Below, one piece after another: positions 39,339-58,251 of a stretch of DNA of 64,000 nucleotides. Under the pieces are notes generated by a model. That model saw only the letters and a list, made by a program, of their open reading frames with translations, was not told the DNA's origin and made no database searches. Location of the stretch: positions 32,001 through 96,000 of IMG/VR virus record IMGVR_UViG_3300028581_002181; one strand, given 5' to 3'. The first letter of the stretch is position 1, and every line of letters begins with the position of its first letter. Made by a program: the position numbers and the translations under genes. Source of the stretch: a virus.

Positions 39339-39739
39339 TAACTGATTTCGGATCTATCCTTTCCTAATTTGTTCACATTGATGTATCCAGCACCACGTGT
39401 GGCATCTTGTCCTTGCTCCTGCAGCACATTTCTAGTGACTTCTCTAAACCAACCTTCCACTATTTCTTCATTGGTTTCACCTTTGTATCCTGCTGTGATC
39501 AGTTCTTCTATGAAAGCATTGTTCCAATCCAATTCAAAGAATCCATTTCTAATGTTTTCTTTGTTGATGTGAGTTTCCAGCACTGCCACCCAAGGTTTGC
39601 CTGCTTTGGTTGCTGCTTCTTTTTCACGCAACATTGCTTTGTGTGATTCGCTTTTGTTTTCAGTTGTGTCTTCTTTTTTAAATATTTTTTTAACTTTATC
39701 AAATATTCCCATATCTTTTTCCTCCATTATGTACCCCAT
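39338..39739 (-). CDS. Hypothetical protein
   Basis: ORF coupled between queE and rnh. Confidence 0.65.
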   Translation of the reverse strand: MGYIMEEKDMGIFDKVKKIFKKEDTTENKSESHKAMLREKEAATKAGKPWVAVLETHINKENIRNGFFELDWNNAFIEELITAGYKGETNEEIVEGWFREVTRNVLQEQGQDATRGAGYINVNKLGKDRSEIS

Positions 39740-41656: not shown

Positions 41657-41685
41657 ATTTTAACAGATTTGTTCCAGTTTGTCAA
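41657..41685 (-). promoter_or_regulatory. Sigma70-type promoter of folE
   Basis: TTGACA (41685-41680), 17 nt, TGt-TAAAAT (41662-41657), embedded in the 3' end of the upstream gene. Confidence 0.75.
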
Positions 41686-42277: not shown

Positions 42278-43077
42278 GGTATATATTTCTCCACAATCAA
42301 TTTGTGATAATCAAAATTGTAATGTTCTTTGTCATGCAATAGATAATCAGTGGGATTCACATTTATATCCAACATGTATTGTTCAATGGTTTTTTCTGCC
42401 ACAGTGGTATTTTGCAATGCACCATAGTATTCCAAACTCTTGGGCCATTTCAATCTATTCATGAAGTTAAACACATAAAGTTTGGCGTTGTGATCTCCAC
42501 ATATCCTATCCCATGCAAACACGTTCAATAGAAAATCACGACGTTCCAAATGTGTGTTCAATTCAAAAAACAATTTGATCTCCATAAAAGTGTTTTTTCT
42601 AATATCTGGCTTCTGTAGTCCTTCTGTTTCACTGATCTGCAAGCCTGGAAATCGATTGTAGTCTTCTGCTGTGGGTTTATTGTATAATTGAACTCTGCCC
42701 TCTTTTACTAATAAATCTAAATATTTTTTCACTGCATCTGTGCTCTGTTCACATTCATGCACAAAATAATCCAATGGCAATGCTTCATCTGTGAGTTTCT
42801 CATCAAAAGCCAACACAAATCTATTCAATGGCGCTAAACAAAGAAACACTTCATCTGTGTCTGGAAATTTATTAAACATGTGTTTCATCCAATCAGTGTA
42901 CATTCTGTTGGTTGTGCCTGCATGTGCATAGATGCACACAGGTTTATTGTTCACTGTGTTGTAAATTTCAGCATAGTTGTTATCATTCCAATAGGTATAA
43001 CTGCCTGGCCCTGTTTTGTCAGGCACAGTGACATATCCACAAGTGTGACTGTCTCCTATGAAAAGTGCTCTGTTCAT
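42250..43077 (-). CDS. SGNH/GDSL-like protein (paralog)
   Basis: LFIGDSHT, YAHAGTTN, C-terminal DKEHYN (DxxH). Confidence 0.55.
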   Translation of the reverse strand: MNRALFIGDSHTCGYVTVPDKTGPGSYTYWNDNNYAEIYNTVNNKPVCIYAHAGTTNRMYTDWMKHMFNKFPDTDEVFLCLAPLNRFVLAFDEKLTDEALPLDYFVHECEQSTDAVKKYLDLLVKEGRVQLYNKPTAEDYNRFPGLQISETEGLQKPDIRKNTFMEIKLFFELNTHLERRDFLLNVFAWDRICGDHNAKLYVFNFMNRLKWPKSLEYYGALQNTTVAEKTIEQYMLDINVNPTDYLLHDKEHYNFDYHKLIVEKYIPWMKNQKKS

Positions 43078-43451
43078 TTTTTATAATTTCCTTTGTGAGG
43101 TATCACATGACGCACACCACCTGTGGGATCCATCATATCTCCTTTGCGTCTTGGAATCAGATGCACGTGTGGATACATGCAAGTCTGCCCTGCTGCTGCT
43201 CCCATGTTGATGCCAATGTTGTAACCATCTATCAATCCTTTTTGAATGTTTTCGTTGCCAATCTTCAGTGCCAATTCAAAACACTTGGTGATATTCTGTT
43301 GACTGGCTTCTCGAGGCACTATGAGTGCGTGTCCTTCTGTGACAGGATATGCATCTTCATACCACACACAATCTTTCAAATCATACACTATTTTTGACCA
43401 AGGAGCTCGGCCTTCTTTTTGTGCTTGTTCCAGAGTGTCTGTGGTGTGCAT
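43074..43451 (-). CDS. HIT (histidine triad) family nucleotide hydrolase
   Basis: DAYPVTEGHALIVPR, NIGIN.GAAAGQT.MYPHVHLIPRR. Confidence 0.9.
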   Translation of the reverse strand: MHTTDTLEQAQKEGRAPWSKIVYDLKDCVWYEDAYPVTEGHALIVPREASQQNITKCFELALKIGNENIQKGLIDGYNIGINMGAAAGQTCMYPHVHLIPRRKGDMMDPTGGVRHVIPHKGNYKK

Positions 43452-43452
43452 G

Positions 43453-43908
43453 TTACCATTGCTCCCAAGGAAACACAATCCATCTAGGATCTTCCAGTTT
43501 GTTGATCACATAACCTTTGTAATCTATTTCTTGATAGGTGCTGGCAGTGTTGTGCAGTATGGCAGCAAACTTCAGTCTTTCAGGCTTGCCAAAATTGTTC
43601 ATAATGTAATTCCAAGTGGCTCCTGTGTCATTGATATCATCCAAGATCAACACCCGTTTCTGCCAAGCATACACCTTTTCCAGTGTGCGGAGATCTGGAA
43701 TATCTGCGTGATCTCGCAAGCTCACATTCAATGTTTGATGCGGTATATCCAATTTGTGCGACAGATATATGGCTGGTATGCAGCCTCCTCTGTTCACACC
43801 CAATATCACTTCAGGCAACCATTGCTGATCCGTCAGTTGTTGATGTATGTTCAACAGTGCTGCACGCATCTGGATCATGGTAAAGTAATTTTTATTGACA
43901 GTTTCCAT
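43453..43908 (-). CDS. Type I phosphoribosyltransferase (purine/xanthine PRT-like)
   Basis: GVNRGGCIPA, PRPP-binding VLILDDINDTGAT, WIVFPWE. Confidence 0.88.
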   Translation of the reverse strand: METVNKNYFTMIQMRAALLNIHQQLTDQQWLPEVILGVNRGGCIPAIYLSHKLDIPHQTLNVSLRDHADIPDLRTLEKVYAWQKRVLILDDINDTGATWNYIMNNFGKPERLKFAAILHNTASTYQEIDYKGYVINKLEDPRWIVFPWEQW

Positions 43909-44259
43909 TTAAAAAGGCATTCTCAGTTGCATCTTGTTGTCATAATCATCCACCACAATGTTGTAGATGTTCTTAAATTTTTGAAACGCAATGTCCAATG
44001 TGGGATATTGTTCGCACATCTCTTTCACTCTGTGCATTTCAGGCATGATGTCTTCCCATAAGATAGGCAGTTTGTAATCTTCAAAATTAACACCTTTCAT
44101 AGCATCTGCTTCAAAATCAATACCTGTGGTAGTGACCGATGCGGCTCCAAATCCATAGGGCACTGATATGGTGGTGGCTGATACTGTGTTGGTGCCTGTG
44201 TTGGCAGTGTAATTGAAATCTGTTTGATAGACATTTTGTTTGATATTTTTATCTTCCAT
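43909..44259 (-). CDS. Hypothetical protein
   Basis: AAAGGA RBS before MEDKNIK (44259). Confidence 0.55.
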   Translation of the reverse strand: MEDKNIKQNVYQTDFNYTANTGTNTVSATTISVPYGFGAASVTTTGIDFEADAMKGVNFEDYKLPILWEDIMPEMHRVKEMCEQYPTLDIAFQKFKNIYNIVVDDYDNKMQLRMPF

Positions 44260-45340
44260 TTGCGATCCTTTGGTAAAGTTGTTTGCCACTAAAAAAGTTT
44301 TCTGCCAATGATATTTTTTGTTTGTGTACCAATGGAGCATATTTCTTGTAGTTGGTCATATAATCTTCTATTTTTCCTTTCAGCAGATGTTTGTGTTTTT
44401 GATAGTGCTCCAAAGATTCTGTCCACGCACTGGGATATTTGAACTCTTCATGAGCCATTTCTTTATAACTTAAACGATCAGGAATCATAGGAATCACTCC
44501 CAATACTGCACCTTCATACCAACTGATGCCCAATGTTTCTTGTAAATTAGCACTGAAAATCAGTTTGGCTTCTGCTAAAAGATTGTGATAGTCATTTTTA
44601 TTTTTGCACACTTCCAAACAAGTCACAAATTCATACTGTGGCATTTCTTTGGCCAAGTCTTGAAATATGTTGTGTTGTTTTTCTGGAGCTAATCTGTGTG
44701 GAAAAAGAATAATGTTCTTTTTTGTGATATTTTTATAACCTGTGAGATCAGCATCCAAATATTCCATGGGCCATCCACATCTCACAATCTTGCCTGTGTG
44801 AAACATATGGTCCACTGTTTCTTTGTCTGCCATTCTACCCAGATCCATCAAATTGTGTAAAAACATATCGATATGAAAATCTGTGGCAAAGTAATTGTGA
44901 TCAAATGATTCAAACAAGCTCTTCTCTGCCCAACGCACCCAAGGTTTATCACCTATCAGTCTGCCCAAAAAGTCTTGTGGATCATAGGATCCTGCGTGCC
45001 ACATGCCACCTATTTTAATTTTTACATTCAATAGTTCTGCCATGTACTTGAGTTGCAACACAGTGGGATTCCAAGCATCTGTGTACAGGAAATAATCACC
45101 ATCTTTGATGTCTCCTGCACTGAACATTTTAGCAATCTGTTCCAATTGTCTACTTTTGTATATGTTGGTGAATGCAAAATTTAAAAAAGCACCCGGAGTG
45201 GTATTTTTCACAGCATCTCCGCCGCTGATCACTTGAACTTCAGTGTTGGTGTGTCTTTTTAATTGAATGGGTAGATATTTTTTCCATTGCTTGGTGTATC
45301 TAGTTTCTACTTCTTCTAGATCCACAATATAAATCTTCAT
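44249..45340 (-). CDS. GT-B (GT4-like) glycosyltransferase
   Basis: ILFPHRLAPEKQ and the E-x7-E signature QETLGISWYEG...P. Confidence 0.75.
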   Translation of the reverse strand: MKIYIVDLEEVETRYTKQWKKYLPIQLKRHTNTEVQVISGGDAVKNTTPGAFLNFAFTNIYKSRQLEQIAKMFSAGDIKDGDYFLYTDAWNPTVLQLKYMAELLNVKIKIGGMWHAGSYDPQDFLGRLIGDKPWVRWAEKSLFESFDHNYFATDFHIDMFLHNLMDLGRMADKETVDHMFHTGKIVRCGWPMEYLDADLTGYKNITKKNIILFPHRLAPEKQHNIFQDLAKEMPQYEFVTCLEVCKNKNDYHNLLAEAKLIFSANLQETLGISWYEGAVLGVIPMIPDRLSYKEMAHEEFKYPSAWTESLEHYQKHKHLLKGKIEDYMTNYKKYAPLVHKQKISLAENFFSGKQLYQRIANGR

Positions 45341-45348
45341 GCACTACC

Positions 45349-45750
45349 CTAATTAATTGTTACAGATTGATCAGCAGGCCAAGTTATCACTGCCCCGTTC
45401 TCACCATCTTCACTCACATCTATCGTGACTTCTCTTTTGGGATATTTTGCACTAATCTGTTGATACAGATCAGTGGCCATCATTTCACAACTTTTGTAAT
45501 CTAATTCTAATACACCTTTGCCATATAAGTTTTCCAGCCATCTTTTAAACTGTATAAATTCAATTTCTCTATCATCATGAAACACTTCTATGGCTATTTT
45601 GAAGTGAAACATGTGTCTGTGAGGATAACCCAAAAAACTCACATCATATTCATCACCTGTTTTGAATTTTGGATCTGTCAAAGCAGCAGGAAATTTGTGC
45701 GTGCCTTCTCTGCGAAATGTTACCCAAATTTTAGATTTCATATTGTTCAT
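45349..45750 (-). CDS. QueD-like T-fold protein with LxxxHRHxF motif (DpdL-like)
   Basis: H16-region HKF, LGYPHRHMF, SCE, VSEDGENGA; lacks the canonical QueD CxxxHGH. Confidence 0.7.
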   Translation of the reverse strand: MNNMKSKIWVTFRREGTHKFPAALTDPKFKTGDEYDVSFLGYPHRHMFHFKIAIEVFHDDREIEFIQFKRWLENLYGKGVLELDYKSCEMMATDLYQQISAKYPKREVTIDVSEDGENGAVITWPADQSVTIN

Positions 45751-45759
45751 GTGTTTCAG

Positions 45760-45801
45760 TATTTAGGTTTATAGTATAACAACCTTTTCAATGTTTGTCA
45801 A
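45760..45801 (-). promoter_or_regulatory. Dual promoter: sigma70 TTGACA-17-TATACT plus late core CTAAATA
   Basis: TTGACA 45801-45796, TGtTATACT ending at 45773, CTAAATA 45766-45760. Confidence 0.75.
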
Positions 45802-46309
45802 TGTCCACAGGATAGTCGCCTTTGTATTCACTCCAATCTGTGTAGGTTTTTTTGGTCATTAACTTGTCCAAATCATGTGTCCAAACTCCTGAATTGGTTG
45901 CTCCCCAAGTGACATCGTCCAGTTTGATCACTGTGTTGGCATTGAAGTTTTTAATATTAGGTATTTTTACTGATATCATGTTGATAAAATGATTGTTCTT
46001 ATGCCAATTCATTCTTGATACCATTTCTGCATACTGCACATCATAATCCAATGTGACCCAATGTCCCAAATCTAATAAATTTTTAATAATGTTATTCCAA
46101 TCTGTCCAATTTTCTTCTGTCACAGGAGTAAAACTTTGACTGGTGCCAAGATATACATGTCTTACATTAGTTTTTTGAGTGTGTCGCACAATGTCTGCCA
46201 GTGCTGGCGTGCCTACAACAAACAGAGTCTTTTCACCTTTCATAGCAGTGTTCTCCACTTCTTTGCCTATGAAAAATTTTACTTTTTTTCTTGATTGTGT
46301 GTTCAACAT
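45788..46309 (-). CDS. Hypothetical protein within the deazaguanine cluster
   Basis: GGAGA RBS, TAATG coupling; VRHVYLGTSQSF, WVTLDY, MISVKIP. Confidence 0.65.
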   Translation of the reverse strand: MLNTQSRKKVKFFIGKEVENTAMKGEKTLFVVGTPALADIVRHTQKTNVRHVYLGTSQSFTPVTEENWTDWNNIIKNLLDLGHWVTLDYDVQYAEMVSRMNWHKNNHFINMISVKIPNIKNFNANTVIKLDDVTWGATNSGVWTHDLDKLMTKKTYTDWSEYKGDYPVDIDKH

Positions 46310-47217
46310 TATTTTCTCCAATCTATATACCCTCTTGCATAGCCATTGGTTCTATTTGTAGCATCTGCAAAAGCATCACGCCATTCAGTGCTTCTGCTGT
46401 AACCTTTGGTCCAAAAGTTAGAAACATCCAGTTTGCCTGTGCTAATAAAATCCACTGCTTCACGCATGCATTCTATAAATTTTTTATTTCTAGGACTGGG
46501 AAATCCCACAGTCACAGCATTCCATAACAGATGAGCAAAATTAGTGCGAACTGAATCTGTTTTTTCAGCAGCCAGTATTAATAATGCTTCAGCATTGAAC
46601 ATATTTCTATCAAACACTTCTGATTTAGTATTCAAATCTATTATAACATCAAACAGTCCTTCAGCATTGTGGGTAAGTTTTTCACCCCAAAATGCTTTGT
46701 TGTGATGGCCCAACACAGTGACATCAAACTGATAATTTTTTATTTGCAAATAGGTATACACCACATAAGACAGAAATCCACTGCCTATGATCAATAATCT
46801 ATTATTATTGCCTGCTTTGTTTTTGATTGCTGTTTCAAACTGTTTGATCACATTGATGCCACAAGCCACAGGCTCCACAATGTATTTGGGATCTGCTGTG
46901 GGCACTTTAACATAGGTTTCTGCATCACAATTGTACTGATCAGCATAAGCAGGTTCTCCTCTGGTGGCCACAAAATCTCCCACTTGAACATCATTTACTT
47001 CACTGCCCACATGAGTCACTTGACCCAATCCTTCATGTCCTTGCATACTCAATGGCAATGTTTTGAATTTACCCAGCATCATGTCCACATCACTGCGACA
47101 CACTCCAGTCATAATATTTTTTACTCTAATTTGTTCAGGATTTAATTCAGGAATATCTATACTGCCTTCATGGAACATGCCATCTCCTTTGGTATATAAC
47201 AGTTTAGTTTCAGTCAT
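46309..47217 (-). CDS. Zn-dependent medium-chain dehydrogenase/reductase
   Basis: GVCRSD, GHEGLG, VGDFV, EPVACG, IIGSGFL; lacks the structural-Zn loop. Confidence 0.8.
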   Translation of the reverse strand: MTETKLLYTKGDGMFHEGSIDIPELNPEQIRVKNIMTGVCRSDVDMMLGKFKTLPLSMQGHEGLGQVTHVGSEVNDVQVGDFVATRGEPAYADQYNCDAETYVKVPTADPKYIVEPVACGINVIKQFETAIKNKAGNNNRLLIIGSGFLSYVVYTYLQIKNYQFDVTVLGHHNKAFWGEKLTHNAEGLFDVIIDLNTKSEVFDRNMFNAEALLILAAEKTDSVRTNFAHLLWNAVTVGFPSPRNKKFIECMREAVDFISTGKLDVSNFWTKGYSRSTEWRDAFADATNRTNGYARGYIDWRK

Positions 47218-48097
47218 TGATTGTATTATGAATCCAAACATCATGTTCTTTGTGTTGGTTCCAAAACTCCTCATTGTTAATATTATTGAAAACATCTTGA
47301 ATCATAGTGGCATAAACTGGTTCAGGACACAGTCCCAGTTCAAAACTTTTAACTAATTTTTCTCTCTGATAGCAATGGATTGCTCTGTCATCTTTGTCCA
47401 TGCTGCGCCAATCAGCAGTTAGAATATATTTTTTCTTACCATCATTCAGTATGATTTCATTCCAATCATCCACATTATATGTGCCATCCAAATTGATCGA
47501 ACCATATTCTGTGCTAATGAGTTGATCCAGTTTCCAATTTTGTTTAACAATATTGCTCTCTATTTGAAATTCTTTGTAGTGGTTAGGATTCATATAAATG
47601 AATATGCTCAATAGATGTGGCATAAGATCTCTGCTGACTCCACCAAATGATAATTTTTTAGTGGTAAACCAGCTGCCTGGTGCTGGCACTCTATCACGAT
47701 TGATCCAATTGATATGAATCACTTCTGCTGCTGCTGTTCTGATATTGAATTCTTCTTCCCATGTTCTCCACATGTTGTTTTTGATCATTATGAATCTAGT
47801 TTGAGGATATGTGAGTTGTAGTGTCTGCCATCTTTTGGCATTGAGTACTCCTGGTTTTTCCACAAACACTATTCGACAATGTTTGGCAATCTTTTGAGCA
47901 ATTGTATCATGTGTATAGTTGGGAGTGCAGATGAACGCAGCATCCAACAGAGGATGTGCATACAAGGCTGTGTCAAGATTGGCAAATGTGGCCTGCTTGC
48001 TTTGATCTGTGTCCATGGTGATCACTTCATGCCCCAACTGTGTCAAAATTTTTGCATACAGTTGCCCCATGCCTAAACCTATCACCAATGTTTTCAT
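47210..48097 (-). CDS. Gfo/Idh/MocA family oxidoreductase
   Basis: VIGLGMG, ICTPNYTH, VFVEKP, GGVSRDLMPH. Confidence 0.85.
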   Translation of the reverse strand: MKTLVIGLGMGQLYAKILTQLGHEVITMDTDQSKQATFANLDTALYAHPLLDAAFICTPNYTHDTIAQKIAKHCRIVFVEKPGVLNAKRWQTLQLTYPQTRFIMIKNNMWRTWEEEFNIRTAAAEVIHINWINRDRVPAPGSWFTTKKLSFGGVSRDLMPHLLSIFIYMNPNHYKEFQIESNIVKQNWKLDQLISTEYGSINLDGTYNVDDWNEIILNDGKKKYILTADWRSMDKDDRAIHCYQREKLVKSFELGLCPEPVYATMIQDVFNNINNEEFWNQHKEHDVWIHNTIND

Positions 48098-48288
48098 ATT
48101 TTTAATTGTTTTCTATATTCTTCTATTTGTGTTTTGATCGCCAGTTTAATTTTCTTATAATTCTTTAATAATGCTTTGCTCTCCCAACTTCTATCATGTT
48201 CTCTTTCCTGTTCCATTTCTTCAGTTTTTCTATGATAGTAATCAAATTCGTGTTCTAATTTTTTTAAACTTTTATTCTTTTTGCTCAT
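48094..48288 (-). CDS. Small basic coiled-coil protein
   Basis: GGAGG RBS; LKKLEHE...KKIKLAIKTQI. Confidence 0.6.
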   Translation of the reverse strand: MSKKNKSLKKLEHEFDYYHRKTEEMEQEREHDRSWESKALLKNYKKIKLAIKTQIEEYRKQLKI

Positions 48289-48289
48289 G

Positions 48290-49753
48290 CTATACCTCCT
48301 CAAATAAGTTAGAAAATTGTGTTGAAGCATTCACTGTTTTTTTGCCTGTGGCGCCTCTGGTGCCTATGATACTCATCCAAAATCTATTGTATTCCTCAAT
48401 CACTGCTTCTGCTGTGTCTCTGCTGTCTGTGGCAAATATTGCTTCCACTATGTCTTTGAATGCCACTTTATCAAATTTTTCTTCCACCAACATGCGTGGA
48501 GTTAATCCTGCGTCATACTGTCTGTTGGCTTCCTGCACAGCATTGATATGTGTCCAAACATTGTGTGCCATTTGTAATGTGTAACTGAATGAATCCCAAG
48601 ATGTTTTGGGATCACCACCCACTTTGTTTTTGTCTCCTGGCGCATAGCAGGTCACATCTTTCAACTGTAATCTTTGACTGATTGGGCTATCTTGAAAATT
48701 ATCAAATATCTTTTCTTGCAACACAGCATCTCTAAACATTCTAGTGTCACCAGCATATTTTTTATCATCTATGCTGGCAGCCATTCTATATGACCATTTT
48801 TCTCTGTCTTTGATATCCACTTCTGTGTAAATTTGTCCATTAGCAGATGCTAGGAATGGAGAAGCACAATCAAAACTCATAGTGAAATTTTCATTGTGAT
48901 ATTTTCGCACAGCTCTTTGTATGTCTGTCAACAACACTGCCCATTCCAGTTTGGATGTGCCTAGGAAGTGCATCCAATCATGCACACCTTTTTCTAATAA
49001 GCCATCAAATCTCAATGCCACCAATCTTTTCAATATAAGATGCACATCACACATGTTCTGACCGCCCATTGCCCAACCATTAAAATGAGTGGTGGGATAT
49101 TTTTTAGGATCACAGTAATCTTTCATCTGTTGATACCAATCATCTGCTTGTTGAAAGTTTTCACCTTGCAACACATTTAAAAACTTACAAGCACCCGTTC
49201 TAGTCTTCATGAAGTAATCATTGTTGATTCTGGTGCCATCCACTGCTTCTTGATAGGAATTGATATTGCTGGCTTTGGCACCTTCTGGAGAACGTGAAAC
49301 CCATGCTGGAATATCCAATATCATACCATAGTCCATGTTGGCATCCATCCAAGTGAGCACCTGTTCTCGCTTCTTCTTGGCTCGGGGACAAGTGGGATCT
49401 TTCCAATTGCCTTCCCATACTCCTTTACCAATCTGAAACCCTCCTGAATCACCCAGTACAAAACTGGTTTTTCTATCTCGGTTTCTTATGATGTCATCTC
49501 TGGCACTAAATTTGTCCATGTTCAAGTCAGCATGACCTGCACTGTACAAATGCCATCTGTAATGAAAATATGTGTTGGTGGGCACAAGATAATTCATGCC
49601 TTCTATGCCATGATTAAAAGCAGCCGGAATCCTATGAGGCAGAATATAATCTTTCTCATGTCTGGCTTTGCCTATATCTCTCGCATAGAAACTGCTCAAC
49701 GCCGGCAGAAAAATAGCGTAATCCTTTTGTTGTGCTGTTAAGTCAGTGTGCAT
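48290..49753 (-). CDS. dpdA: DpdA/TGT-family 7-deazaguanine transglycosylase-like protein
   Basis: TGT catalytic motifs GDSGGFQ, ILDIP, NVLQG, GWAMGG, HFLG, SFDCASP; co-located with folE, queE and the QueD-like gene. Confidence 0.75.
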   Translation of the reverse strand: MHTDLTAQQKDYAIFLPALSSFYARDIGKARHEKDYILPHRIPAAFNHGIEGMNYLVPTNTYFHYRWHLYSAGHADLNMDKFSARDDIIRNRDRKTSFVLGDSGGFQIGKGVWEGNWKDPTCPRAKKKREQVLTWMDANMDYGMILDIPAWVSRSPEGAKASNINSYQEAVDGTRINNDYFMKTRTGACKFLNVLQGENFQQADDWYQQMKDYCDPKKYPTTHFNGWAMGGQNMCDVHLILKRLVALRFDGLLEKGVHDWMHFLGTSKLEWAVLLTDIQRAVRKYHNENFTMSFDCASPFLASANGQIYTEVDIKDREKWSYRMAASIDDKKYAGDTRMFRDAVLQEKIFDNFQDSPISQRLQLKDVTCYAPGDKNKVGGDPKTSWDSFSYTLQMAHNVWTHINAVQEANRQYDAGLTPRMLVEEKFDKVAFKDIVEAIFATDSRDTAEAVIEEYNRFWMSIIGTRGATGKKTVNASTQFSNLFEEV

Positions 49754-49770
49754 AAATTTACTTGTGTAAA

Positions 49771-50499
49771 CTATTTGGTCTGTGCTGGCAATATATAATT
49801 GTATTCAGCGATACCACTGTCCACAGTTAATTGCATAGCACCTTGATCACTAAGACTCATTTTGATCTTGCCATCAAGATTCAATATGCTGATTACCTGT
49901 TGAATGGGCCAACTCCAACCTTGTTTCAATTCACCCACCACATTGGCTTGGAATATAAAACTTCCTGCATGCGAATTAGCATCTCCAAAGTAAAACATCA
50001 AATTCTTGTTTTCAGTTTTTACTGTGAACACAGTTTCTTCTGTGTGTGCTGCTGCCTGCAGTTTTAATCTTTGAATACTGGCCAGTGTGGGTTCAAATTC
50101 TATGCTCCAAGCTGTGCCTTTAAACTTGATTGATTTAAGTTTTTCATTGATGATTTCAGTGTTCATAAATCTGTAATCATTTTGGAAATCACCTGATGAA
50201 TTTTCAAAGTGAATATGAGTTGGAATTTCCACTCCATTGCGTGTGGCTTTGACCACATTTAATTTAGCGTCTTTTTGATACTCAGGACATTTCAAATGCA
50301 ATGCCAGTTTGTCCAAGTTAGGCATACCAAATGTACCTGTAAATTCAAATACTTTTTTATTGGTTGTTGCTGAAAGAATAACTGATCTGTCTTCAGCCAT
50401 ACTTTCAATTTTGGTTTTTTCTTCGTTGGTAACTTTTACTAGACTCAAAAATCCTAATTGATGAGTGTGTGCTACCACGTCTTGTAAGATGTCTTTCAT
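49771..50499 (-). CDS. Probable DNA polymerase sliding clamp (gp45-like)
   Basis: 242 aa with a repeating beta-alpha pattern, near PolB; context-based call. Confidence 0.6.
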   Translation of the reverse strand: MKDILQDVVAHTHQLGFLSLVKVTNEEKTKIESMAEDRSVILSATTNKKVFEFTGTFGMPNLDKLALHLKCPEYQKDAKLNVVKATRNGVEIPTHIHFENSSGDFQNDYRFMNTEIINEKLKSIKFKGTAWSIEFEPTLASIQRLKLQAAAHTEETVFTVKTENKNLMFYFGDANSHAGSFIFQANVVGELKQGWSWPIQQVISILNLDGKIKMSLSDQGAMQLTVDSGIAEYNYILPAQTK

Positions 50500-50523
50500 T
50501 TTGTGTTCTCCATTGTTGTGTTC

Positions 50524-50552
50524 ATTATATTTAGGCCTTAGTCAGAAGTCAA
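50524..50552 (-). promoter_or_regulatory. Dual promoter: sigma70 TTGACT-17-TATAAT overlapping late core CTAAATA
   Basis: TTGACT 50552-50547, TATAAT 50529-50524, CTAAATA 50534-50528; GGAGA RBS. Confidence 0.78.
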
Positions 50553-51305
50553 GTGATATTTGTTTTTAATGTACTCAATCACATTAACTTTTGGTTCCCA
50601 ACCTAAATCTCTTAATTCTTTGATATTGGCACAGTTGTCCATTCTTTCGAACTCATCACCTTTAACTGATGCATAATTCGTTATGCCTGCCGAATCCACC
50701 AAAGTTTTTAAATTGTTGCTGATTCCACAGCCCACGTCTATTACTCCTGTGATGTCTTTGGTCATCAATAGATCTATGGCAGACACAATATCACTCACAT
50801 GTATGAAATCTCTGGTATGATCAGTGATGTACTGTATGTTATTTTTGAATAATTTAGACATAAACATATCTGCACGGCCATCTTCAGCCCACACAGTGGT
50901 AAATCTTAATCCCAAACTATTTTTTGGTGCAATTTTTTCCATAGCAAATTTACTGAATCCATAAGGATTCAATTCTGGTTCGGCAGCTGAACTGCTGCTG
51001 GCATATATTATCTTTGTGTTGGGAAAGGCAGCAAATAATTTTTGACTTGCCAACACATTATTTTGCCAATATTTTATAGGATTCTGTAAACTGTCTCGCA
51101 CAGAAGCTATACCAGCCAAATGTATCACTAGATCCACATCATAATTTAAATCACAAGTGAGTAGATCTTGCTGATTGTTTCGATCCAATCCAATCACTGT
51201 GTGTGCAAATTCCAGCACTCCATTTCGCATCACTCTCACTGTGCTCAAATAATCACGCAGATATGACCCTATAAATCCTAGATGTCCTGTCAATAGTATT
51301 TTCAT
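50538..51305 (-). CDS. NAD-dependent nucleotide-sugar epimerase/dehydratase
   Basis: TGHLGFIGS, VIHLAG, YASSS, YGFSK (YxxxK), LRFTTV, RDFIHV.D. Confidence 0.9.
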   Translation of the reverse strand: MKILLTGHLGFIGSYLRDYLSTVRVMRNGVLEFAHTVIGLDRNNQQDLLTCDLNYDVDLVIHLAGIASVRDSLQNPIKYWQNNVLASQKLFAAFPNTKIIYASSSSAAEPELNPYGFSKFAMEKIAPKNSLGLRFTTVWAEDGRADMFMSKLFKNNIQYITDHTRDFIHVSDIVSAIDLLMTKDITGVIDVGCGISNNLKTLVDSAGITNYASVKGDEFERMDNCANIKELRDLGWEPKVNVIEYIKNKYHLTSD

Positions 51306-51841
51306 TTTTTCTTCACTCCCAGTTGTTTAAAAACTTGTTGCACACATTTGGCCTGATAGTAACAGTCAGCCAATGCATTGTGTAGACTGCTCTGCATGCT
51401 CTTTCTAGGATCCTCAGGCATCAGATCAAACAGTGTGCGACTGTCTCTAATCTGCCAATAGTTGAAAGGCACAGGTGTACGAGCTTGTTCATATAAATTT
51501 TGTATGATGGCATAGTCAAACAATGGACCTTGACACCACAGCTGATCCAATCCCACACACCATTTGTTGAATTCTTTGGCAAAGTCTGCAATGATCACTC
51601 GATCTGTGTCTCCCAATGCTTCATCACGTATCTCGGGTGCCTGTCTGCCCCACCATTCGATGGTGCCTTCATCCACAGTTCTACCCAATGCAGTCTGTTC
51701 ATCCACATTCAATCTCCAGTATCTGCCTTCATAAGGTTCCGAATCTGAGTGTGGATCAAACTTGATAGCGCCCACAGTCAATATGGCAGCATCTGGTCGA
51801 GTGCCTAATGTTTCTAAATCTACCATGCCGTATCTTGCCAT
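51302..51841 (-). CDS. DEDD 3'-5' exonuclease (DexA-like)
   Basis: MVDLETLG, GPLFD, WQIRDSRT, HNALADC. Confidence 0.85.
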   Translation of the reverse strand: MARYGMVDLETLGTRPDAAILTVGAIKFDPHSDSEPYEGRYWRLNVDEQTALGRTVDEGTIEWWGRQAPEIRDEALGDTDRVIIADFAKEFNKWCVGLDQLWCQGPLFDYAIIQNLYEQARTPVPFNYWQIRDSRTLFDLMPEDPRKSMQSSLHNALADCYYQAKCVQQVFKQLGVKKK

Positions 51842-54514
51842 CTAATCTCCCAAGTCAAATAATGTGTTGAATGTGTTGCCTGTTTCTGTGCTTTGAATAT
51901 CCCAATCCAGCACTCCCAACAGGTTGCCCAATTTACTATCGATCACTGTGGTCTCCATGGCTGCATGATCAAAAGGTAATTCTTTAAACCATTGTGGTAT
52001 TCTCAATTGATCTGTGGGATAGGCCACACTGGTATAATCTAACGGGTTATTTTTAAGTTTGCACACAATCACTTTCATACCATCCACAATCTCTATACTG
52101 TATCTGTCATTGTTCATGCGTTTGAGTGTGTTCCAATTGATGCTGGCTCTCACATGTCCTGGCATGTTGGCTTTGCCTTGTGCTTTTTCTTTCTTTTGAT
52201 AATCTGCCACATTGTTGGCACGTTTGGGTGAGCCTTTTTCCCAACCTGGACGCAGTTTGAATTCATTTCTAAATGTGCTGATTCTTTCCAGCACTGCTTT
52301 CTCATCCGATTTGGTCAACACCATCAGTAATATCTCACTCAAAAAATCCTGCACGAACACCGGAGTGTCCGAACGTTTGAGATCCAATCCCATGGCTTTT
52401 ACTTTGCCTGGTTTTCCTTCTACATCCATACGATTGCCTTCCAATTCATATATCAGCACAGCATATCTTTTTTTAGTGATAAACAATCCTGTTTCACTGA
52501 TGGATTCACGACCTGCTTGAATCACTTCTGCTCTTGTTTTTGGACAATGAAATGCTTCACTCATGAATGCTTTAAAACTGTTGTTGACTTCTTCAGCCAC
52601 TTGATCATACAGTCTAATCACACTCTCTTTGCTCCAAGGAATCAATCCAGCATCAATATCTTTCTTTAAAACTTTGTAAGCACTAAAATAAGCAGAGTCT
52701 GTGTCACCATATATCACAGCATCACCCAGATGATCGTATGTGCCTGTGATCACTTCGTTGATCTTGGCTGCCATGTGTTTGCTGATGGTTCTACCTGTGA
52801 GCGTGGTGGATTGACCTATGCGTTTATCAAAGAATCTACAGCCTGGATTCAATATGGCACCATACAGCGAATTCAAATTAATTTTTTTGACCAATTGTCT
52901 TTTGTCCCAAAATTCAATTTCTGCTTGATTGCTGGCATGTTGTGCTTTCTTTTTCATGGCTTGCATTTCTGTTCTTTCCTGATACCATGTTTTCAACAAG
53001 CCAGGAATAACTCCTTCAAACTCTGTGGTAAACATGGTGCCATTGGCACTGATCATGATGGGATTTCTGCTTTCAAATATCATTTTGTAAATTTCTGCAC
53101 CACTTTTTACCTCGGTTCTACCATCTTCCCAATCAATGGTGATGGGCTGATCTCGTCTCTGAGTCATCACATATTCATACTCCAAACTGCCAAATTTGTT
53201 TTCCCATGCTGCTGCAAATGATTTGCCTTGCAGATTAATCTGATCCTGTAGGAATGCTTCAGTGTAGGTGGGTCTCAATTGTCCTACCACACATTCAGGA
53301 GCCATGTTGAGTGCTCTGATCACACTAGGATACAGTGAATTCAAGTCCATGGATCCTATCCAGTCATGCAGTCCTTTTTTGGGAAATGCCACATAAGCAC
53401 CTGCTGCAGTGGTGTCATCACCCTCTGCTCTGTGTGGTCTATTGGGCACTTGCAATCCTCTTTTGTGTGCTTCATTGATAATGGCTTGCTCAGTCACGGC
53501 CACTGCTCCCATAGTGGTTTGCATCAACACAGTGTTGGCGTGTGCCAGTTCATTGCTGAGTTCTAAAAATTTAAGTTTTTTATCCAAATTGTTCAGCAGT
53601 TGCACGTCCTGTCTATTGTATTCCACAAAAGTTTTAAAATCTTGGTTGTACAATTGATCCAAGGTGCCTTCATACACTGTTTTCTTCTCTCCCAACTCCA
53701 TTTCACCTATGGCATCCAATCTGTATGTGTGGCGTTCTTCATAGGTATATTTTCTATACAGTTCCAAACTGTCTATGTGTACTCTGCCCACTAGATCATA
53801 GGTTTCTTGCTCACGTCCATACTTTTCAAAAGTTCTTTTTTTGGGCATCTGTGACCACAAACAAAAACGTCTGGTGTCATCTTTGCTCAATACTTTGCTG
53901 ACTCTATTCACTAGATAAGGCATATCATAGCCTTCTGAGTTCCATCCACTCAGCACATCCACATCTTCTATGATGTCCAAGAATGCCTGCAGCATGTCTG
54001 CTTCACGCTCATACAGATACAAATTTTCAATGTGCTTGGTCTGCTCTCGGGCTTGCTCCATGTTTAATGTCTTGGGAATCAGTGCAAAAGTAACCATGCT
54101 GTTGATCCATTGTAGATACACAGTGATGGCAGTGACTGGCATGAAGGGGTCTGAGGGATCAGCGAATCCTTTTTCAGGATCAAAGTCTGCTTCTATGTCA
54201 AAAAATGCCACATTCAGTTTGGGAGCATCGTGGTTGAGATAATTGGCACTGAGACATTGAAATATGGGATTGATGTCGGATTCAAATAATTTTTTGTTCC
54301 TATTGATGGCCAATTCTTTGTGAAAGTCTTTGGTGTTTTTGCTGACGATCCTGCTGAGACTGTTGCCATAGATACTTCTAAATTTGCCATTGGCATCTTC
54401 ATAAAAAAATGTGTATCTAATGGGATATTCTTTGTAGATTCTTTTGCCTTCTTTGCGTTCTACCACGCGAATGATATCGTGATTTCTATCGAAAAATGCG
54501 TCTATGTAACTCAT
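51842..54514 (-). CDS. polB: Family B DNA polymerase (T4 gp43-like)
   Basis: FDIE, GWNSEGYD, DLNSLYPS, KINLNSLYG, YGDTDS, KKRY. Confidence 0.97.
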   Translation of the reverse strand: MSYIDAFFDRNHDIIRVVERKEGKRIYKEYPIRYTFFYEDANGKFRSIYGNSLSRIVSKNTKDFHKELAINRNKKLFESDINPIFQCLSANYLNHDAPKLNVAFFDIEADFDPEKGFADPSDPFMPVTAITVYLQWINSMVTFALIPKTLNMEQAREQTKHIENLYLYEREADMLQAFLDIIEDVDVLSGWNSEGYDMPYLVNRVSKVLSKDDTRRFCLWSQMPKKRTFEKYGREQETYDLVGRVHIDSLELYRKYTYEERHTYRLDAIGEMELGEKKTVYEGTLDQLYNQDFKTFVEYNRQDVQLLNNLDKKLKFLELSNELAHANTVLMQTTMGAVAVTEQAIINEAHKRGLQVPNRPHRAEGDDTTAAGAYVAFPKKGLHDWIGSMDLNSLYPSVIRALNMAPECVVGQLRPTYTEAFLQDQINLQGKSFAAAWENKFGSLEYEYVMTQRRDQPITIDWEDGRTEVKSGAEIYKMIFESRNPIMISANGTMFTTEFEGVIPGLLKTWYQERTEMQAMKKKAQHASNQAEIEFWDKRQLVKKINLNSLYGAILNPGCRFFDKRIGQSTTLTGRTISKHMAAKINEVITGTYDHLGDAVIYGDTDSAYFSAYKVLKKDIDAGLIPWSKESVIRLYDQVAEEVNNSFKAFMSEAFHCPKTRAEVIQAGRESISETGLFITKKRYAVLIYELEGNRMDVEGKPGKVKAMGLDLKRSDTPVFVQDFLSEILLMVLTKSDEKAVLERISTFRNEFKLRPGWEKGSPKRANNVADYQKKEKAQGKANMPGHVRASINWNTLKRMNNDRYSIEIVDGMKVIVCKLKNNPLDYTSVAYPTDQLRIPQWFKELPFDHAAMETTVIDSKLGNLLGVLDWDIQSTETGNTFNTLFDLGD

Positions 54515-54527
54515 ATGTTCCCATCCA

Positions 54528-54575
54528 TGTCATTTGAGGCTGACACATACCAAACAATCGCTTATGGCCGATTAT
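54528..54575 (-). promoter_or_regulatory. Tandem 5-bp-stem/8-nt-loop hairpins in the polymerase leader (putative translational operator)
   Basis: On -: AATCG-GCCATAAG-CGATT and TGTCA-GCCTCAAA-TGACA, the second ending 13 nt before the ATG. Confidence 0.5.
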
Positions 54576-54578
54576 GCC

Positions 54579-54827
54579 TTACCTAATATAGTATAACAGT
54601 ATACCACCTATGCCCACACATGTCAACACAATGTTGGTCACTATGAGTGCCGATTCTCGCCAAATCAATGCCACCATCAACCAAAACACGCCACCCAAAG
54701 CCAGCAGTGCCGGACCCATGGGGTATAGTTCTGGAAAACCAGCATTCACAAATGTGCCCACTATCAGTATGGCAGTGGCAATCCATTTGAGGATTTGATC
54801 TAGCTTATTTGGTTTCATGTCTGTCAA
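54579..54827 (-). CDS. Small 3-TM membrane protein
   Basis: Three hydrophobic segments; WIATAILIVG...W...W. Confidence 0.7.
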   Translation of the reverse strand: MTDMKPNKLDQILKWIATAILIVGTFVNAGFPELYPMGPALLALGGVFWLMVALIWRESALIVTNIVLTCVGIGGILLYYIR

Positions 54828-55857
54828 AAATTCTATTGATCACATTGTTCACTCTCACAAAATGAGCACACTTGGGCATGTCTTTGATGCGTCTGGCTCC
54901 AATGTAGGTGCAGGTGCTTCGCACACCACCCAATATCTGTTCCACTGTGTCTTTCACAGAACCTCTGTCTTCCAACAGCACAGTCTTGCCTTCGGTGCCT
55001 CTGTAGCCATCTTTCCTTGCACCGTGTTGTTCAAATGCTGATTCCGAACTCATGCCGTAGAACACTCGCTTGCCATCTTGCAGTTCCAATTCTGATTCGT
55101 CATGTGCTGCCAGCATGCCTCCCAGCATCACCATGTGAGCACCTGCGCCTAATGCTTTGGCAATGTCTCCTGGCTGTGTGCAACCACCATCTGCTATGAT
55201 GTGTCCGCCCACGCCGTTGGCAGCATCTGCACATTCTATCACTGCTGAAAATTGTGGCACTCCCACTCCGGTCTGTGTTCTTGTGGTGCACACTGATCCT
55301 GGACCTATGCCAATCTTGACCACGTCTGCTCCGTTGATAATCAATTCTTCCACCATTTCTGGTGACACCACGTTGCCTGCTATGATGGTCTTGTCGGGAA
55401 ATTCTGATCTAATTCTTTTGACAAAGTCCACAAACTGCTCGTGATATGCGTTGGCCACATCTATGGTGATCATGTTGACATCTGGGTATTTTACCATGAC
55501 CTTTTTCAAGGTTTGATAGTCGGGAGAATTGTTGTCCCATATGGCACCTGTGCCTGTGCATGCACTCACATATTGTAATTTTAATCCAGTGCCCATTGCT
55601 CTGTCCCAATCTTCAATGGTGTAATGTTTTCTTAACACAGTCAGCAGTTTGTATTCCTGCAATGCTCTGGCCATGCTGAATGTGCCCACGCCATCCATGT
55701 TGCTGGCCACTATGGGCACAAATGCAATCTGTTGTTTGCTATTACGAAATGTGAAATCTCTGGTCATGTCCACATCACGTCTTGAACTCAGTGTGGATCT
55801 TTTGGGTTTTAATAGTACGTCTGCGTAATCAAGATGTATGTTATAATCTATTCTCAT
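54805..55857 (-). CDS. guaC: GMP reductase
   Basis: DYADVLLKPKRSTLSSR, ASNMDGVG, IDVANAY, KIGIGPGSVCTTR, IIADGG, FYGMSS, EGK, GGVRSTCTY. Confidence 0.93.
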   Translation of the reverse strand: MRIDYNIHLDYADVLLKPKRSTLSSRRDVDMTRDFTFRNSKQQIAFVPIVASNMDGVGTFSMARALQEYKLLTVLRKHYTIEDWDRAMGTGLKLQYVSACTGTGAIWDNNSPDYQTLKKVMVKYPDVNMITIDVANAYHEQFVDFVKRIRSEFPDKTIIAGNVVSPEMVEELIINGADVVKIGIGPGSVCTTRTQTGVGVPQFSAVIECADAANGVGGHIIADGGCTQPGDIAKALGAGAHMVMLGGMLAAHDESELELQDGKRVFYGMSSESAFEQHGARKDGYRGTEGKTVLLEDRGSVKDTVEQILGGVRSTCTYIGARRIKDMPKCAHFVRVNNVINRIFDRHETK

Positions 55858-58250: not shown

Positions 58251-58251
58251 A

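What the first reader, a model, noticed from the sequence alone, without database searches (positions are those of the whole stretch)
43074..55857. PRTase + HIT + GMP reductase: hints of pre-replicative guanine replacement
Seen: a purine-type PRTase and a HIT hydrolase inside the Que cluster, and guaC plus a HAD phosphatase just upstream of polB. Established: GuaC drains GMP to IMP, and PRTases turn free bases into nucleotides. In dZ phages, synthesis of the new nucleotide is paired with depletion of the canonical one. Inference: a deazaguanine nucleotide is made at pool level, dGTP supply is suppressed, and PolB incorporates the analogue, possibly at most G positions, rather than by post-replicative base exchange.
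Basis: inference. Interest (0 to 1): 0.7.

Follow-up and report, generated by a model that had tools for sequence, protein, structure and literature searches.

The report
Purine-handling enzymes in phage deazaguanine module
A giant uncultured phage that most likely swaps the guanine in its DNA for 7-deazaguanine also carries a guanine-salvage-type enzyme, a HIT hydrolase and a GMP reductase wired into the same gene block; they point to an untested nucleotide-level helper step, but not (yet) to DNA being copied directly with the modified base.

Summary
Observation confirmed: a 151-aa Gpt-like phosphoribosyltransferase (PRT) and a HIT protein lie between FolE and a DpdL-type decarboxylase. An intact GMP reductase, translationally coupled to a 97-aa HAD phosphatase, lies just before PolB.

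Interpretation partly supported. The same operon encodes a confidently modelled tRNA-guanine-transglycosylase-fold protein with both catalytic Asp motifs. It is present in every relative that could be checked, so base exchange is encoded and "rather than base exchange" is not supported.

- PRT is a near-universal module member: 29/31 dereplicated loci and 19/20 large contigs. It recurs in unrelated cultured deazaguanine phages, including phiST and CP220, which replace all G. It is absent from four partial-replacement phages.
- HIT is restricted to this clade.
- GuaC is restricted to a sub-lineage. There it is always inside the PolB-Que superoperon, and in 11 loci it sits between FolE and PRT. 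Other GuaC-carrying phages lack Que genes.

Best model (0.4): transglycosylase exchange, with PRT (and GuaC) recycling or draining the released guanine. Main rival (0.3): PRT makes a 7-deazaguanine nucleotide for dNTP-level incorporation.

I found no searchable paper that discusses this PRT. The scan's own index lists the PRT/deazaguanine pairing in at least 81 other genomes.

The parts
39727..40587 (-). QueE-like radical SAM (7-carboxy-7-deazaguanine synthase)
   Evidence: phrog_2076 E 1e-48; weak TIGR QueE hits
40950..41636 (-). FolE, GTP cyclohydrolase I
   Evidence: PF01227, 140.5 bits
41660..43077 (-). Two SGNH/GDSL-like genes (41660-42277 and 42250-43077), role unknown
   Evidence: GDSFACEW and GDSHTCGY N-terminal motifs; no Pfam hit; conserved only in the closer relatives
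43074..43478 (-). HIT (Hint-branch) protein, tight partner of PRT in this clade
   Evidence: PF01230, 46.3 bits. Y-P-H-V-H-L-I motif with the nucleophile His kept. Median gap to PRT 2 bp. Present in 16/20 large relatives and 0/8 cultured deazaguanine phages.
43453..43908 (-). Small Gpt/XGPRT-like purine phosphoribosyltransferase (PRT)
   Evidence: PF00156. PDB relatives 1vdm, 4z1o and E. coli XGPRT. Invariant RGG, DDINDxGxT and W..PWE; Asn120 in place of the O6-binding Lys. Present in 19/20 large relatives.
44249..45340 (-). GT-like protein that travels with DpdL
   Evidence: Marginal PF00534 hit. Homologues next to DpdL in PA5oct, BUCT-ZZ01, ACP17, Phosso and BUDD.
45349..45750 (-). DpdL-type QueD paralogue (proposed CDG decarboxylase)
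   Evidence: LGYPHRHMF matches the LxxxHRHxF motif of PMC10516641. tblastn hit to phiST gp040, 34% identity, E 3e-9.
45788..46321 (-). u177, conserved unknown next to DpdL
   Evidence: About 100 homologues. AF2 pLDDT 90 but no clear fold match.
48290..49753 (-). DpdA-like guanine transglycosylase (TGT fold)
   Evidence: AF2 pLDDT 90.5. Foldseek top hits are all Z. mobilis TGT, prob 1.00, E about 1e-6. Invariant D102-SGGFQ and F-D295-CASP.
49771..50499 (-). Clamp-like protein p242
   Evidence: phrog_12062. The Phosso homologue is annotated as a sliding clamp.
51842..54514 (-). Family B DNA polymerase
   Evidence: PF00136 and PF03104; 49% identity to Sinorhizobium phage Phosso PolB
54579..54827 (-). 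DUF6552 small membrane protein that travels with GuaC
   Evidence: PF20189, 33 bits; adjacent to GuaC in 71/80 GuaC loci
54805..55857 (-). GuaC, GMP reductase
   Evidence: NF003470, 475.5 bits against a cut-off of 397; GIGPGSVCTTR loop
55854..56147 (-). Minimal HAD-like phosphatase, translationally coupled to GuaC
   Evidence: DIDNT...T...K...DD motifs; phrog_1238 and phrog_415; next to GuaC in 65/80 loci

Best explanation
The block is a DpdL-type 7-deazaguanine (DG) DNA-modification module fused to the replication operon of a T4-like jumbo phage.

Proposed pathway:
1. FolE, a QueD (phage or host) and QueE turn GTP into 7-carboxy-7-deazaguanine.
2. DpdL decarboxylates it to DG.
3. The TGT-fold DpdA-like enzyme, encoded beside the clamp and PolB, exchanges G in phage DNA for DG. 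Each exchange releases one free guanine.
4. The Gpt-like PRT converts that guanine to GMP with PRPP. This removes a competing substrate of the transglycosylase and regenerates the GTP that FolE consumes.
5. In the sub-lineage that carries GuaC (with the HAD phosphatase), surplus GMP is bled to IMP, and on to adenine nucleotides or inosine.
6. HIT is a clade-specific partner of PRT with an unknown nucleotide substrate.

Shown here: gene identities, the TGT fold and catalytic motifs, and the conserved synteny and co-occurrence.
Inferred: the substrate of every enzyme, and the direction of flux.
For: Transglycosylase:
- TGT fold with both catalytic Asp motifs.
- The DpdA-like gene is found in every related locus that reaches that position.

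PRT family and conservation:
- PRT belongs to the Gpt/XGPRT lineage. It keeps the PRPP loop Asp that contacts purine N7 in 6-oxopurine PRTs, and the stacking Trp.
- PRT is present in 29/31 dereplicated loci spanning QueE to DpdL, and in 19/20 large contigs including genomes that are 87, 91 and 99% complete.
- PRT sits next to FolE, which uses GTP, in L033, L043, L048, L050 and Brevundimonas phage StAshley.
- In phiST it sits beside a dNMP-kinase-like gene and RNR.

PRT is auxiliary rather than obligatory:
- 8 of 11 cultured DpdL phages lack it yet keep DpdL, GT, FolE and QueE.

Link to the amount of guanine released:
- PRT is present in phiST and CP220, which replace all G. It is absent from 9g, CAjan, Dp-1 and nt-1, which replace part of it (replacement levels from PMC10516641 and PMC6884629).

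GuaC:
- The order FolE-GuaC-PRT in 11 loci is the textbook guanine to GMP to IMP salvage branch.
Against: - Hosts normally have their own Gpt/Hpt, so the need for a phage copy is an argument, not a demonstration.
- The invariant Asn in place of the O6-binding Lys shows that the base pocket is not that of a standard XGPRT.
- PRT is as often adjacent to QueE, the source of the 7-deaza base, as to FolE.
- The tight PRT-HIT pair (2-bp gap) has no role in a simple salvage loop.
- Published attempts to reconstitute DpdL plus DpdA3 failed, and an ADG nucleoside was reported in the cytoplasm of CP220-infected cells (PMC10516641). Both fit a nucleotide-level route.
Confidence: 0.4

Rival explanations
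1. Pre-replicative route. PRT loads DG, or CDG before DpdL acts, onto PRPP. Host or phage kinases and RNR convert the product to 7-deaza-dGTP. PolB incorporates it. The TGT-like enzyme only mops up residual G, or has another substrate. GuaC, HAD and HIT trim the canonical guanine nucleotide pool.
For: - Precedent: TubE is a CDG-specific PRTase in a QueC-less FolE/QueD/QueE pathway (PMC6112128).
- PRT lies zero to two genes from QueE in many lineages: BUCT-ZZ01, PA5oct, CP220 and L035/L039/L046.
- PRT is present in both complete-replacement phages tested and in none of four partial-replacement phages.
- In phiST, a MazG and a kinase-like gene sit inside the Que-DpdL cluster, and PRT sits beside a dNMP-kinase-like gene and RNR.
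- DpdA3 activity has never been reconstituted, and an ADG nucleoside was seen in infected cells (PMC10516641).
- A modified-dGTP route was already proposed for Campylobacter phages (PMC6884629).
- Asn120 replaces the O6-binding Lys.
Against: - An intact TGT-like gene is universally retained next to the clamp and PolB.
- 8 of 11 cultured DpdL phages have no PRT.
- No MazG, guanylate kinase or RNR was found in the 116-kb fragment. The fragment is only 32% complete.
- In near-complete relatives MazG lies far from the module.
- Draining GMP would starve FolE of GTP.
- A PRPP route yields a ribonucleotide first, which would also enter RNA.
Confidence: 0.3
2. Tubercidin/toyocamycin-like branch. PRT makes a 7-deazaguanine nucleotide. 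GuaC reductively deaminates it to 7-deaza-IMP. Host PurA/PurB convert that to a 7-deaza-adenine nucleotide. The HAD phosphatase may release a nucleoside. The result would be a second modified purine in DNA, or a toxic nucleoside.
For: - Every functional class of the tub cluster has a counterpart here: GCH-I, QueE, PRTase, a decarboxylase, GMP reductase and a nucleotide phosphohydrolase, with no QueC.
- In 11 related loci the order FolE-GuaC-PRT equals tubC-tubD-tubE (PMC6112128 Table 1).
- GuaC and HAD are translationally coupled.
Against: - GuaC is an ordinary enterobacterial-type GMP reductase, 53% identical to a Salmonella GuaC.
- GuaC is absent from most lineages that carry the module.
- A nucleic-acid installer (TGT-like) is present, which the 2026 genome-mining rule uses to exclude secondary-metabolite pathways.
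- No PurA was found in the fragment.
- I know of no report of 7-deazaadenine in phage DNA.
Confidence: 0.07
3. PRT and HIT belong to a further hypermodification step, together with the GT-like, epimerase and oxidoreductase genes (for example building a sugar or ribosyl-phosphate adduct). Alternatively, they and GuaC are general auxiliary nucleotide-metabolism genes with no specific link to deazaguanine chemistry.
For: - GT-like and sugar-nucleotide enzymes are interleaved in the same operon.
- PA5oct, which carries the GT/DpdL/PRT/QueE block, is restricted by nucleases that sense hypermodified DNA (PMC12191111).
- GuaC occurs in Que-less phages XacN1, Xoo-sp13, Cr30, RAS14 and G.
Against: - PRT recurs with Que genes in lineages that have no GT or sugar genes: phiST, CP220 and StAshley.
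- 42 of 48 dereplicated PRT clusters have QueE or FolE within 10 kb.
- All 80 best GuaC relatives lie inside this module's superoperon.
Confidence: 0.18

Closest known systems
dDG system of Cellulophaga phage phiST (FolE, QueD, QueE, DpdL, DpdA3; PMC10516641)
   Same: - QueC-less pathway with a DpdL homologue carrying the LxxxHRHxF motif (34% identity).
- The cluster abuts the replicative polymerase.
- A transglycosylase-family installer is present.
- phiST also encodes a member of this PRT family (gp064, 88 bits to the profile).
   Different: - The installer here is a 487-aa TGT-like protein with no BLAST similarity to phiST gp042.
- PRT lies inside the module here, rather than 18 kb away.
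- This module additionally has HIT, GuaC, HAD, a GT-like gene and sugar enzymes.
- No QueD was found in the fragment.
- phiST has MazG and kinase-like genes in its cluster. This window does not.
Pseudomonas jumbo phage PA5oct (Wroclawvirus) module
   Same: - Same order: DsbA, PolB, p242, DpdA-like (34% identity), GT, DpdL, PRT-like, QueE, RNaseH.
- Its DNA resists several G-containing restriction sites, which the authors read as modified G (PMC12191111).
   Different: - No FolE, HIT, u177 or GuaC in the PA5oct block.
- Its PRT-like protein is degenerate at the C-terminal W..PWE motif.
Tubercidin and toyocamycin biosynthesis (TubC/A/B, TubE PRTase, TubF, TubD GMP reductase, TubG; PMC6112128)
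   Same: - FolE and QueE are followed by a PRTase, a decarboxylase, a GMP reductase and a phosphohydrolase, with no QueC.
- The FolE-GuaC-PRT order occurs in 11 relatives.
   Different: - The PRT here is Gpt-type, not the 194-aa TubE type.
- The decarboxylase candidate is a T-fold DpdL, not a UbiD enzyme.
- A nucleic-acid transglycosylase is present.
- The context is a phage replication operon, not an actinomycete gene cluster.
dZ (2-aminoadenine) phages: PurZ with DatZ and MazZ
   Different: - No dGTP-specific triphosphohydrolase was found.
- GuaC acts on GMP, the precursor of the modification itself.
- A post-replicative installer is encoded.
Cellular Gpt/XGPRT 6-oxopurine phosphoribosyltransferases (E. 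coli XGPRT, P. horikoshii 1vdm, S. solfataricus GpT-2)
   Same: Same size (about 150 aa), RGG loop, acidic PRPP loop with the DTG Asp, and the C-terminal WIxFPWE stacking motif.
   Different: - Far below the NCBIfam equivalog cut-off (45 against 138 bits).
- An invariant Asn sits where the cellular enzymes have the O6-binding Lys.
- The family has its own SLRD loop.

Membership tests
Type I 6-oxopurine PRTase (Gpt/XGPRT) | PRPP-binding loop (two acidic residues, x-x, D-T/S-G-x-T) and the RGG pyrophosphate loop | tested here: met
   Invariant R40-G-G and D90-D-I-N-D94-x-G-x-T98 in 25 family members
Type I 6-oxopurine PRTase (Gpt/XGPRT) | Aromatic residue stacking on the purine in the C-terminal WIxxPW motif | tested here: met
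   Invariant W143, P147 and E149; aligned with WIVFPWE of 1vdm and WIxQPWD of E. coli XGPRT
Type I 6-oxopurine PRTase (Gpt/XGPRT) | Lys that hydrogen-bonds the exocyclic O6 (Lys115 in E. coli XGPRT; role recalled from memory of the published structures) | tested here: not met
   The HMMER alignments place the invariant Asn120 at that column
Type I 6-oxopurine PRTase (Gpt/XGPRT) | Scores above the curated equivalog cut-off | tested here: not met
   NF006613: 45.4 bits against a cut-off of 138
Type I 6-oxopurine PRTase (Gpt/XGPRT) | Uses guanine, xanthine or hypoxanthine with PRPP | not testable with these tools
   Needs an enzyme assay
HIT superfamily, Hint branch | Pfam HIT domain above the gathering score | tested here: met
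   PF01230: 46.3 bits against 21.5
HIT superfamily, Hint branch | H-x-H-x-H-x-x histidine triad | tested here: inconclusive
   The motif is Y-P-H95-V-H97-L-I. The second (nucleophile) and third His are invariant, and the first position is Tyr.
GMP reductase GuaC | Equivalog model above cut-off, and the catalytic Cys loop | tested here: met
   NF003470: 475.5 bits against 397. GIGPGSVCTTR is present. TIGR01305 scores 448 bits, below its cut-off of 492.
DpdA/TGT guanine transglycosylases | TGT (beta/alpha)8 fold | tested here: met
   AF2 pLDDT 90.5. Foldseek top 50 are all Z. mobilis TGT, prob 1.00, E 1e-6 to 1e-5, TM 0.4-0.5.
DpdA/TGT guanine transglycosylases | Two catalytic aspartates, in the DSGGFQ and FDC motifs | tested here: met
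   Invariant D102-S-G-G-F-Q107 and F294-D295-C-A-S-P
DpdA/TGT guanine transglycosylases | Sequence-level match to Pfam TGT or to solved TGTs | tested here: not met
   No Pfam family at E <= 0.01. No PDB hit by sequence or by profile.
DpdA/TGT guanine transglycosylases | Exchanges guanine in DNA for a 7-deazaguanine base | not testable with these tools
   Needs biochemistry
DpdL (proposed CDG decarboxylase) | QueD-like T-fold paralogue with LxxxHRHxF in place of CxxxHGH | tested here: met
   LGYPHRHMF at residues 40-48 (motif from PMC10516641). Homologous to phiST gp040.
Pre-replicative 'make and deplete' systems (dZ type) | Dedicated hydrolase that removes the canonical dNTP (here dGTP) | tested here: inconclusive
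   No MazG (PF03819) in the 116-kb fragment, and none near the module in relatives. The fragment is 32% complete. The substrates of HIT and HAD are unknown.
Pre-replicative 'make and deplete' systems (dZ type) | No post-replicative installer needed or encoded | tested here: not met
   The TGT-like gene is universal in the clade
Tubercidin-type 7-deazapurine nucleoside pathway | FolE, QueD, QueE, PRTase, decarboxylase, GMP reductase and phosphohydrolase, with no nucleic-acid transglycosylase | tested here: not met
   The enzyme classes are present, except QueD in this fragment. However, a TGT-like gene is in the operon, and GuaC is missing from most relatives.

The most novel reading that the evidence does not exclude
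The Gpt-like PRT is the entry point of a dNTP-level pathway. It phosphoribosylates DG or CDG, so the polymerase writes 7-deaza-G directly, and the TGT-like enzyme only finishes the job. This would overturn the published view that all phage 7-deazaguanine DNA is made after replication. In the GuaC-bearing sub-lineage, part of the 7-deaza-GMP could even be converted to 7-deaza-adenine nucleotides.
Probability: 0.3. Interest if true: 0.85.

Novelty: new variant of a known kind. Interest (0 to 1): 0.6.

Why it matters
How phages achieve complete replacement of guanine by 7-deazaguanines is unresolved. The proposed DpdA3 and DpdL activities have never been reconstituted, and an earlier modified-dGTP proposal was set aside.

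A small purine PRTase turns out to be a conserved member of these gene sets in at least six unrelated phage lineages, and I found no searchable paper that discusses it. It is present in the two complete-replacement phages tested and absent from four partial-replacement phages.

Whichever reading is right (guanine sink and recycler, or nucleotide-level entry), it is probably the missing helper for efficient or complete substitution. That would matter for engineering fully 7-deaza-substituted DNA and for understanding evasion of restriction and CRISPR.

PA5oct, phiST and CP220 are cultured, so the question is directly testable.

Tried and rejected
- Megablast of the region against GenBank phages found no match.
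- Sequence and profile searches of the PDB with the DpdA-like protein and with u177 returned nothing useful.
- I suspected that u177 might be a nucleoside deoxyribosyltransferase or DNPH1-like enzyme that swaps bases on dGMP. Its confident model gave no such match. The best matches were Foldseek E 0.014 and VIA Z 6.4 (STAS and QueE-like rows), all within the noise range. The idea is unsupported, not excluded.
- Searches of the 116-kb fragment for QueC, QueD, PurA, RNR large subunit, MazG and guanylate kinase were all empty. With 32% completeness this proves little.
- tblastn with phiST gp042 (DpdA3) did not reach the Campylobacter phages. It gave only weak hits to Bacillus phage proteins with inconsistent names.
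- I tried to read Crippen et al. 2019 (J Virol e01111-19) by DOI, PubMed id and PMC id. It is not held.
- I considered reading the PA5oct restriction pattern (PMC12191111) as proof of motif-specific, hence post-replicative, modification. I rejected this. From memory, fully c7G-substituted DNA is still cut by a few enzymes such as HindIII, so the pattern does not discriminate.

Full report
**What is there**

The region 37.8-60 kb of the window is one long minus-strand operon. Pfam, PHROG and NCBIfam scans and direct reading give this order of transcription:
- a Trp-halogenase-like flavoenzyme and a DsbA-like regulator;
- a 97-aa HAD-like phosphatase (55854-56147; motifs DIDNT, T, K, DD);
- GuaC (54805-55857; NF003470 475.5 bits, cut-off 397; GIGPGSVCTTR loop);
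- a DUF6552 membrane protein;
- family-B PolB (51842-54514), an Rv2179c-like exonuclease, an NAD epimerase and a clamp-like protein;
- a 487-aa protein with a GDSGGFQ motif (48290-49753);
- two oxidoreductases, and a conserved unknown (u177);
- a QueD paralogue carrying LGYPHRHMF, the LxxxHRHxF signature of DpdL (PMC10516641);
- a GT-like protein and a small unknown;
- a 151-aa PRTase (43453-43908) and a HIT protein (43074-43478);
- two SGNH-like proteins, FolE, QueE and a 5'-3' exonuclease.

The contig is an IMG/VR viral fragment of 116 kb, estimated 32% complete. Its PolB is closest to the giant T4-like phages Phosso and Atu_ph07.

**The installer**

The 487-aa protein has no Pfam or PDB sequence match. 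Its AlphaFold model is confident (pLDDT 90.5). Foldseek returns only Zymomonas tRNA-guanine transglycosylase structures at probability 1.00. In 25 diverse homologues, D102-SGGFQ and F-D295-CASP are invariant. These are the two catalytic-aspartate motifs of TGT.

A base-exchange enzyme is therefore encoded between DpdL and the clamp and PolB genes. It appears in every related locus that extends that far.

**How conserved the three enzymes are**

I fetched 136 related IMG/VR loci using PRT and the TGT-like protein as queries. I built HMMs from the window's proteins and dereplicated the loci into 81 clusters.

The backbone order holds across the clade: PolB, p242, DpdA-like, (sugar genes), u177, DpdL, GT..., PRT, (HIT), FolE, QueE, exo. 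It holds even where PRT is only about 30% identical.

| Test | PRT | HIT | GuaC family |
|---|---|---|---|
| 31 clusters whose locus spans QueE to DpdL | 29 | 20 | 7 |
| 20 large contigs, whole-record search | 19, including genomes 87, 91 and 99% complete | 16 | 4, in neither of the two genomes at least 90% complete |

PRT and HIT are immediate neighbours, with a median gap of 2 bp.

**GuaC in detail**

Five complete cultured phage genomes carry a GuaC: XacN1, Xoo-sp13, Cr30, RAS14 and phage G. None has a TGT-like gene or FolE. None of 11 cultured DpdL-carrying phages has a GuaC.

However, a scan of IMG/VR with GuaC changed the picture for this particular clade. All 80 best relatives (78-99% identity) lie in this same superoperon.
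- 69 have the order DsbA, HAD, GuaC, DUF6552, PolB.
- 11 have the order FolE, GuaC, (DUF6552), PRT, QueE.

GuaC is therefore a lineage-restricted but stably retained addition, and in one branch it sits directly between FolE and PRT. It is dispensable for the module in general, but it is not a random passenger here.

**PRT outside the clade**

The PRT profile also finds members in unrelated cultured phages that have deazaguanine genes.

| Phage | Context of the PRT-family gene |
|---|---|
| PA5oct | PRT-like gene next to QueE, in a fully syntenic block |
| Cyanophage BUCT-ZZ01 | QueE, PRT, unknown, QueD, FolE |
| Brevundimonas phage StAshley | RNR, RNR, dNMP kinase, FolE, PRT |
| Cellulophaga phage phiST | gp064, beside a P-loop dNMP-kinase-like gene and RNR |
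| Campylobacter phage CP220 | CPT_0182, two genes before a radical SAM gene |

phiST and CP220 are two of the three phages reported to replace all G (PMC10516641). Four phages with partial replacement (9g, CAjan, Dp-1, nt-1) give no match. Eight of 11 cultured DpdL phages also lack PRT, so PRT is not obligatory for the DpdL/TGT system. Pfam HIT finds nothing in eight cultured deazaguanine phages, so the PRT-HIT pairing is specific to this uncultured clade.

**What kind of PRT it is**

The PRT is Gpt/XGPRT-like. Its best PDB relatives are 1vdm, 4z1o and E. coli XGPRT. It has invariant RGG, DDINDxGxT and W..PWE motifs. It scores far below the XGPRT equivalog cut-off. It also has an invariant Asn at the column where XGPRTs have the O6-binding Lys. 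Sequence alone cannot say whether it prefers guanine or a 7-deaza base.

**Mechanism**

Two models fit.

Model A (0.4). The TGT-like enzyme exchanges G for DG after replication. Every exchange frees a guanine.
- PRT converts that guanine irreversibly to GMP. This removes a competing TGT substrate and regenerates the GTP that FolE consumes, which closes a purine loop.
- GuaC, where present, vents surplus GMP to IMP.
- This explains the universal TGT gene and why PRT is dispensable in many DpdL phages.
- It also explains PRT's association with complete replacement, its adjacency to FolE, and the FolE-GuaC-PRT order, which is the classical gpt/guaC salvage branch.
- It does not explain HIT or the altered base pocket.

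Model B (0.3). PRT loads DG or CDG onto PRPP, as TubE does in tubercidin biosynthesis (PMC6112128). The nucleotide reaches PolB as 7-deaza-dGTP.
- It is favoured by the adjacency of PRT to QueE.
- It is favoured by the kinase, RNR and MazG neighbours in phiST and StAshley.
- DpdL plus DpdA3 could not be reconstituted, and an ADG nucleoside was reported in CP220-infected cells (PMC10516641).
- A modified-dGTP route had already been proposed for Campylobacter phages (PMC6884629).
- It is weakened by the universally retained TGT gene.
- No dGTP-depleting enzyme was found near the module.
- GuaC would deplete the pathway's own precursor.

Two further readings are kept at lower weight: a tubercidin-like 7-deaza-adenine branch (0.07), and a role in a further hypermodification or no specific role (0.18).

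**Comparison with the literature**

No paper in the searchable library links a PRTase, HIT or GMP reductase to phage deazaguanine DNA. The 2023 NAR paper does not contain the word "phosphoribosyl", although phiST gp064 is annotated as a PRTase. PA5oct DNA has been shown to resist several G-containing restriction sites (PMC12191111), so a cultured model of this module exists.

The scan's own index lists 88 earlier notes on PRTases in phage deazaguanine clusters, in at least 81 genomes. I treat these as leads, not as evidence. This window adds the HIT partner and the GuaC-HAD pair, and the finding that GuaC sits between FolE and PRT in a sister branch.

**Verdict**

- Observation: confirmed.
- Interpretation: partly supported.
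- Novelty: a new variant of a known kind of system.
- Interest: 0.6.

Noticed in passing
window 56712-58322 (-): A Trp-halogenase-like flavoenzyme (PF04820, 257 bits) sits beside the DsbA-like gene. A homologue lies about 5 kb from GuaC in relative G008 (L144). A halogenase in a phage replication operon is unusual.
   Followed up: no
window 41660-43077 (-): Two tandem SGNH/GDSL-like genes lie between FolE and HIT. They occur only in the closer relatives. phiST also has an SGNH hydrolase (gp030) just upstream of its Que genes.
   Followed up: partly
window 45788-46321 (-): u177 is conserved next to DpdL in about 100 loci and in ACP17 and Phosso. Its AF2 model is confident but has no recognisable fold. 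The Phosso record calls its homologue 'glycosylase'.
   Followed up: partly
window 44249-45340 (-): The GT-like protein travels with DpdL in PA5oct, BUCT-ZZ01, ACP17, Phosso and BUDD, but not in phiST. This hints that DG is modified further in those phages.
   Followed up: partly
whole fragment G000; relatives G010, G012, G017: There is no QueD (PF01242) in the 116-kb fragment, although distant relatives carry one between HIT and PRT. This lineage either keeps QueD elsewhere or relies on the host.
   Followed up: partly
L149:7804-8580 (phiST gp042, the published DpdA3): tblastn gives only weak hits (about 22% identity) to Bacillus phage proteins annotated NadR, polynucleotide kinase or integrase. 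There is no similarity to the TGT-like protein of this window.
   Followed up: no
L137 (PA5oct 216595-221821): The PA5oct PolB gene is split by a Hef-like homing endonuclease. In the record, the p242 homologue is annotated as a virion structural protein detected by MS.
   Followed up: no
L162:5365-5832 (StAshley gene after PRT): This 155-aa protein has an FVFGSNLRGIHGKGAA motif directly downstream of PRT. It was not identified.
   Followed up: no
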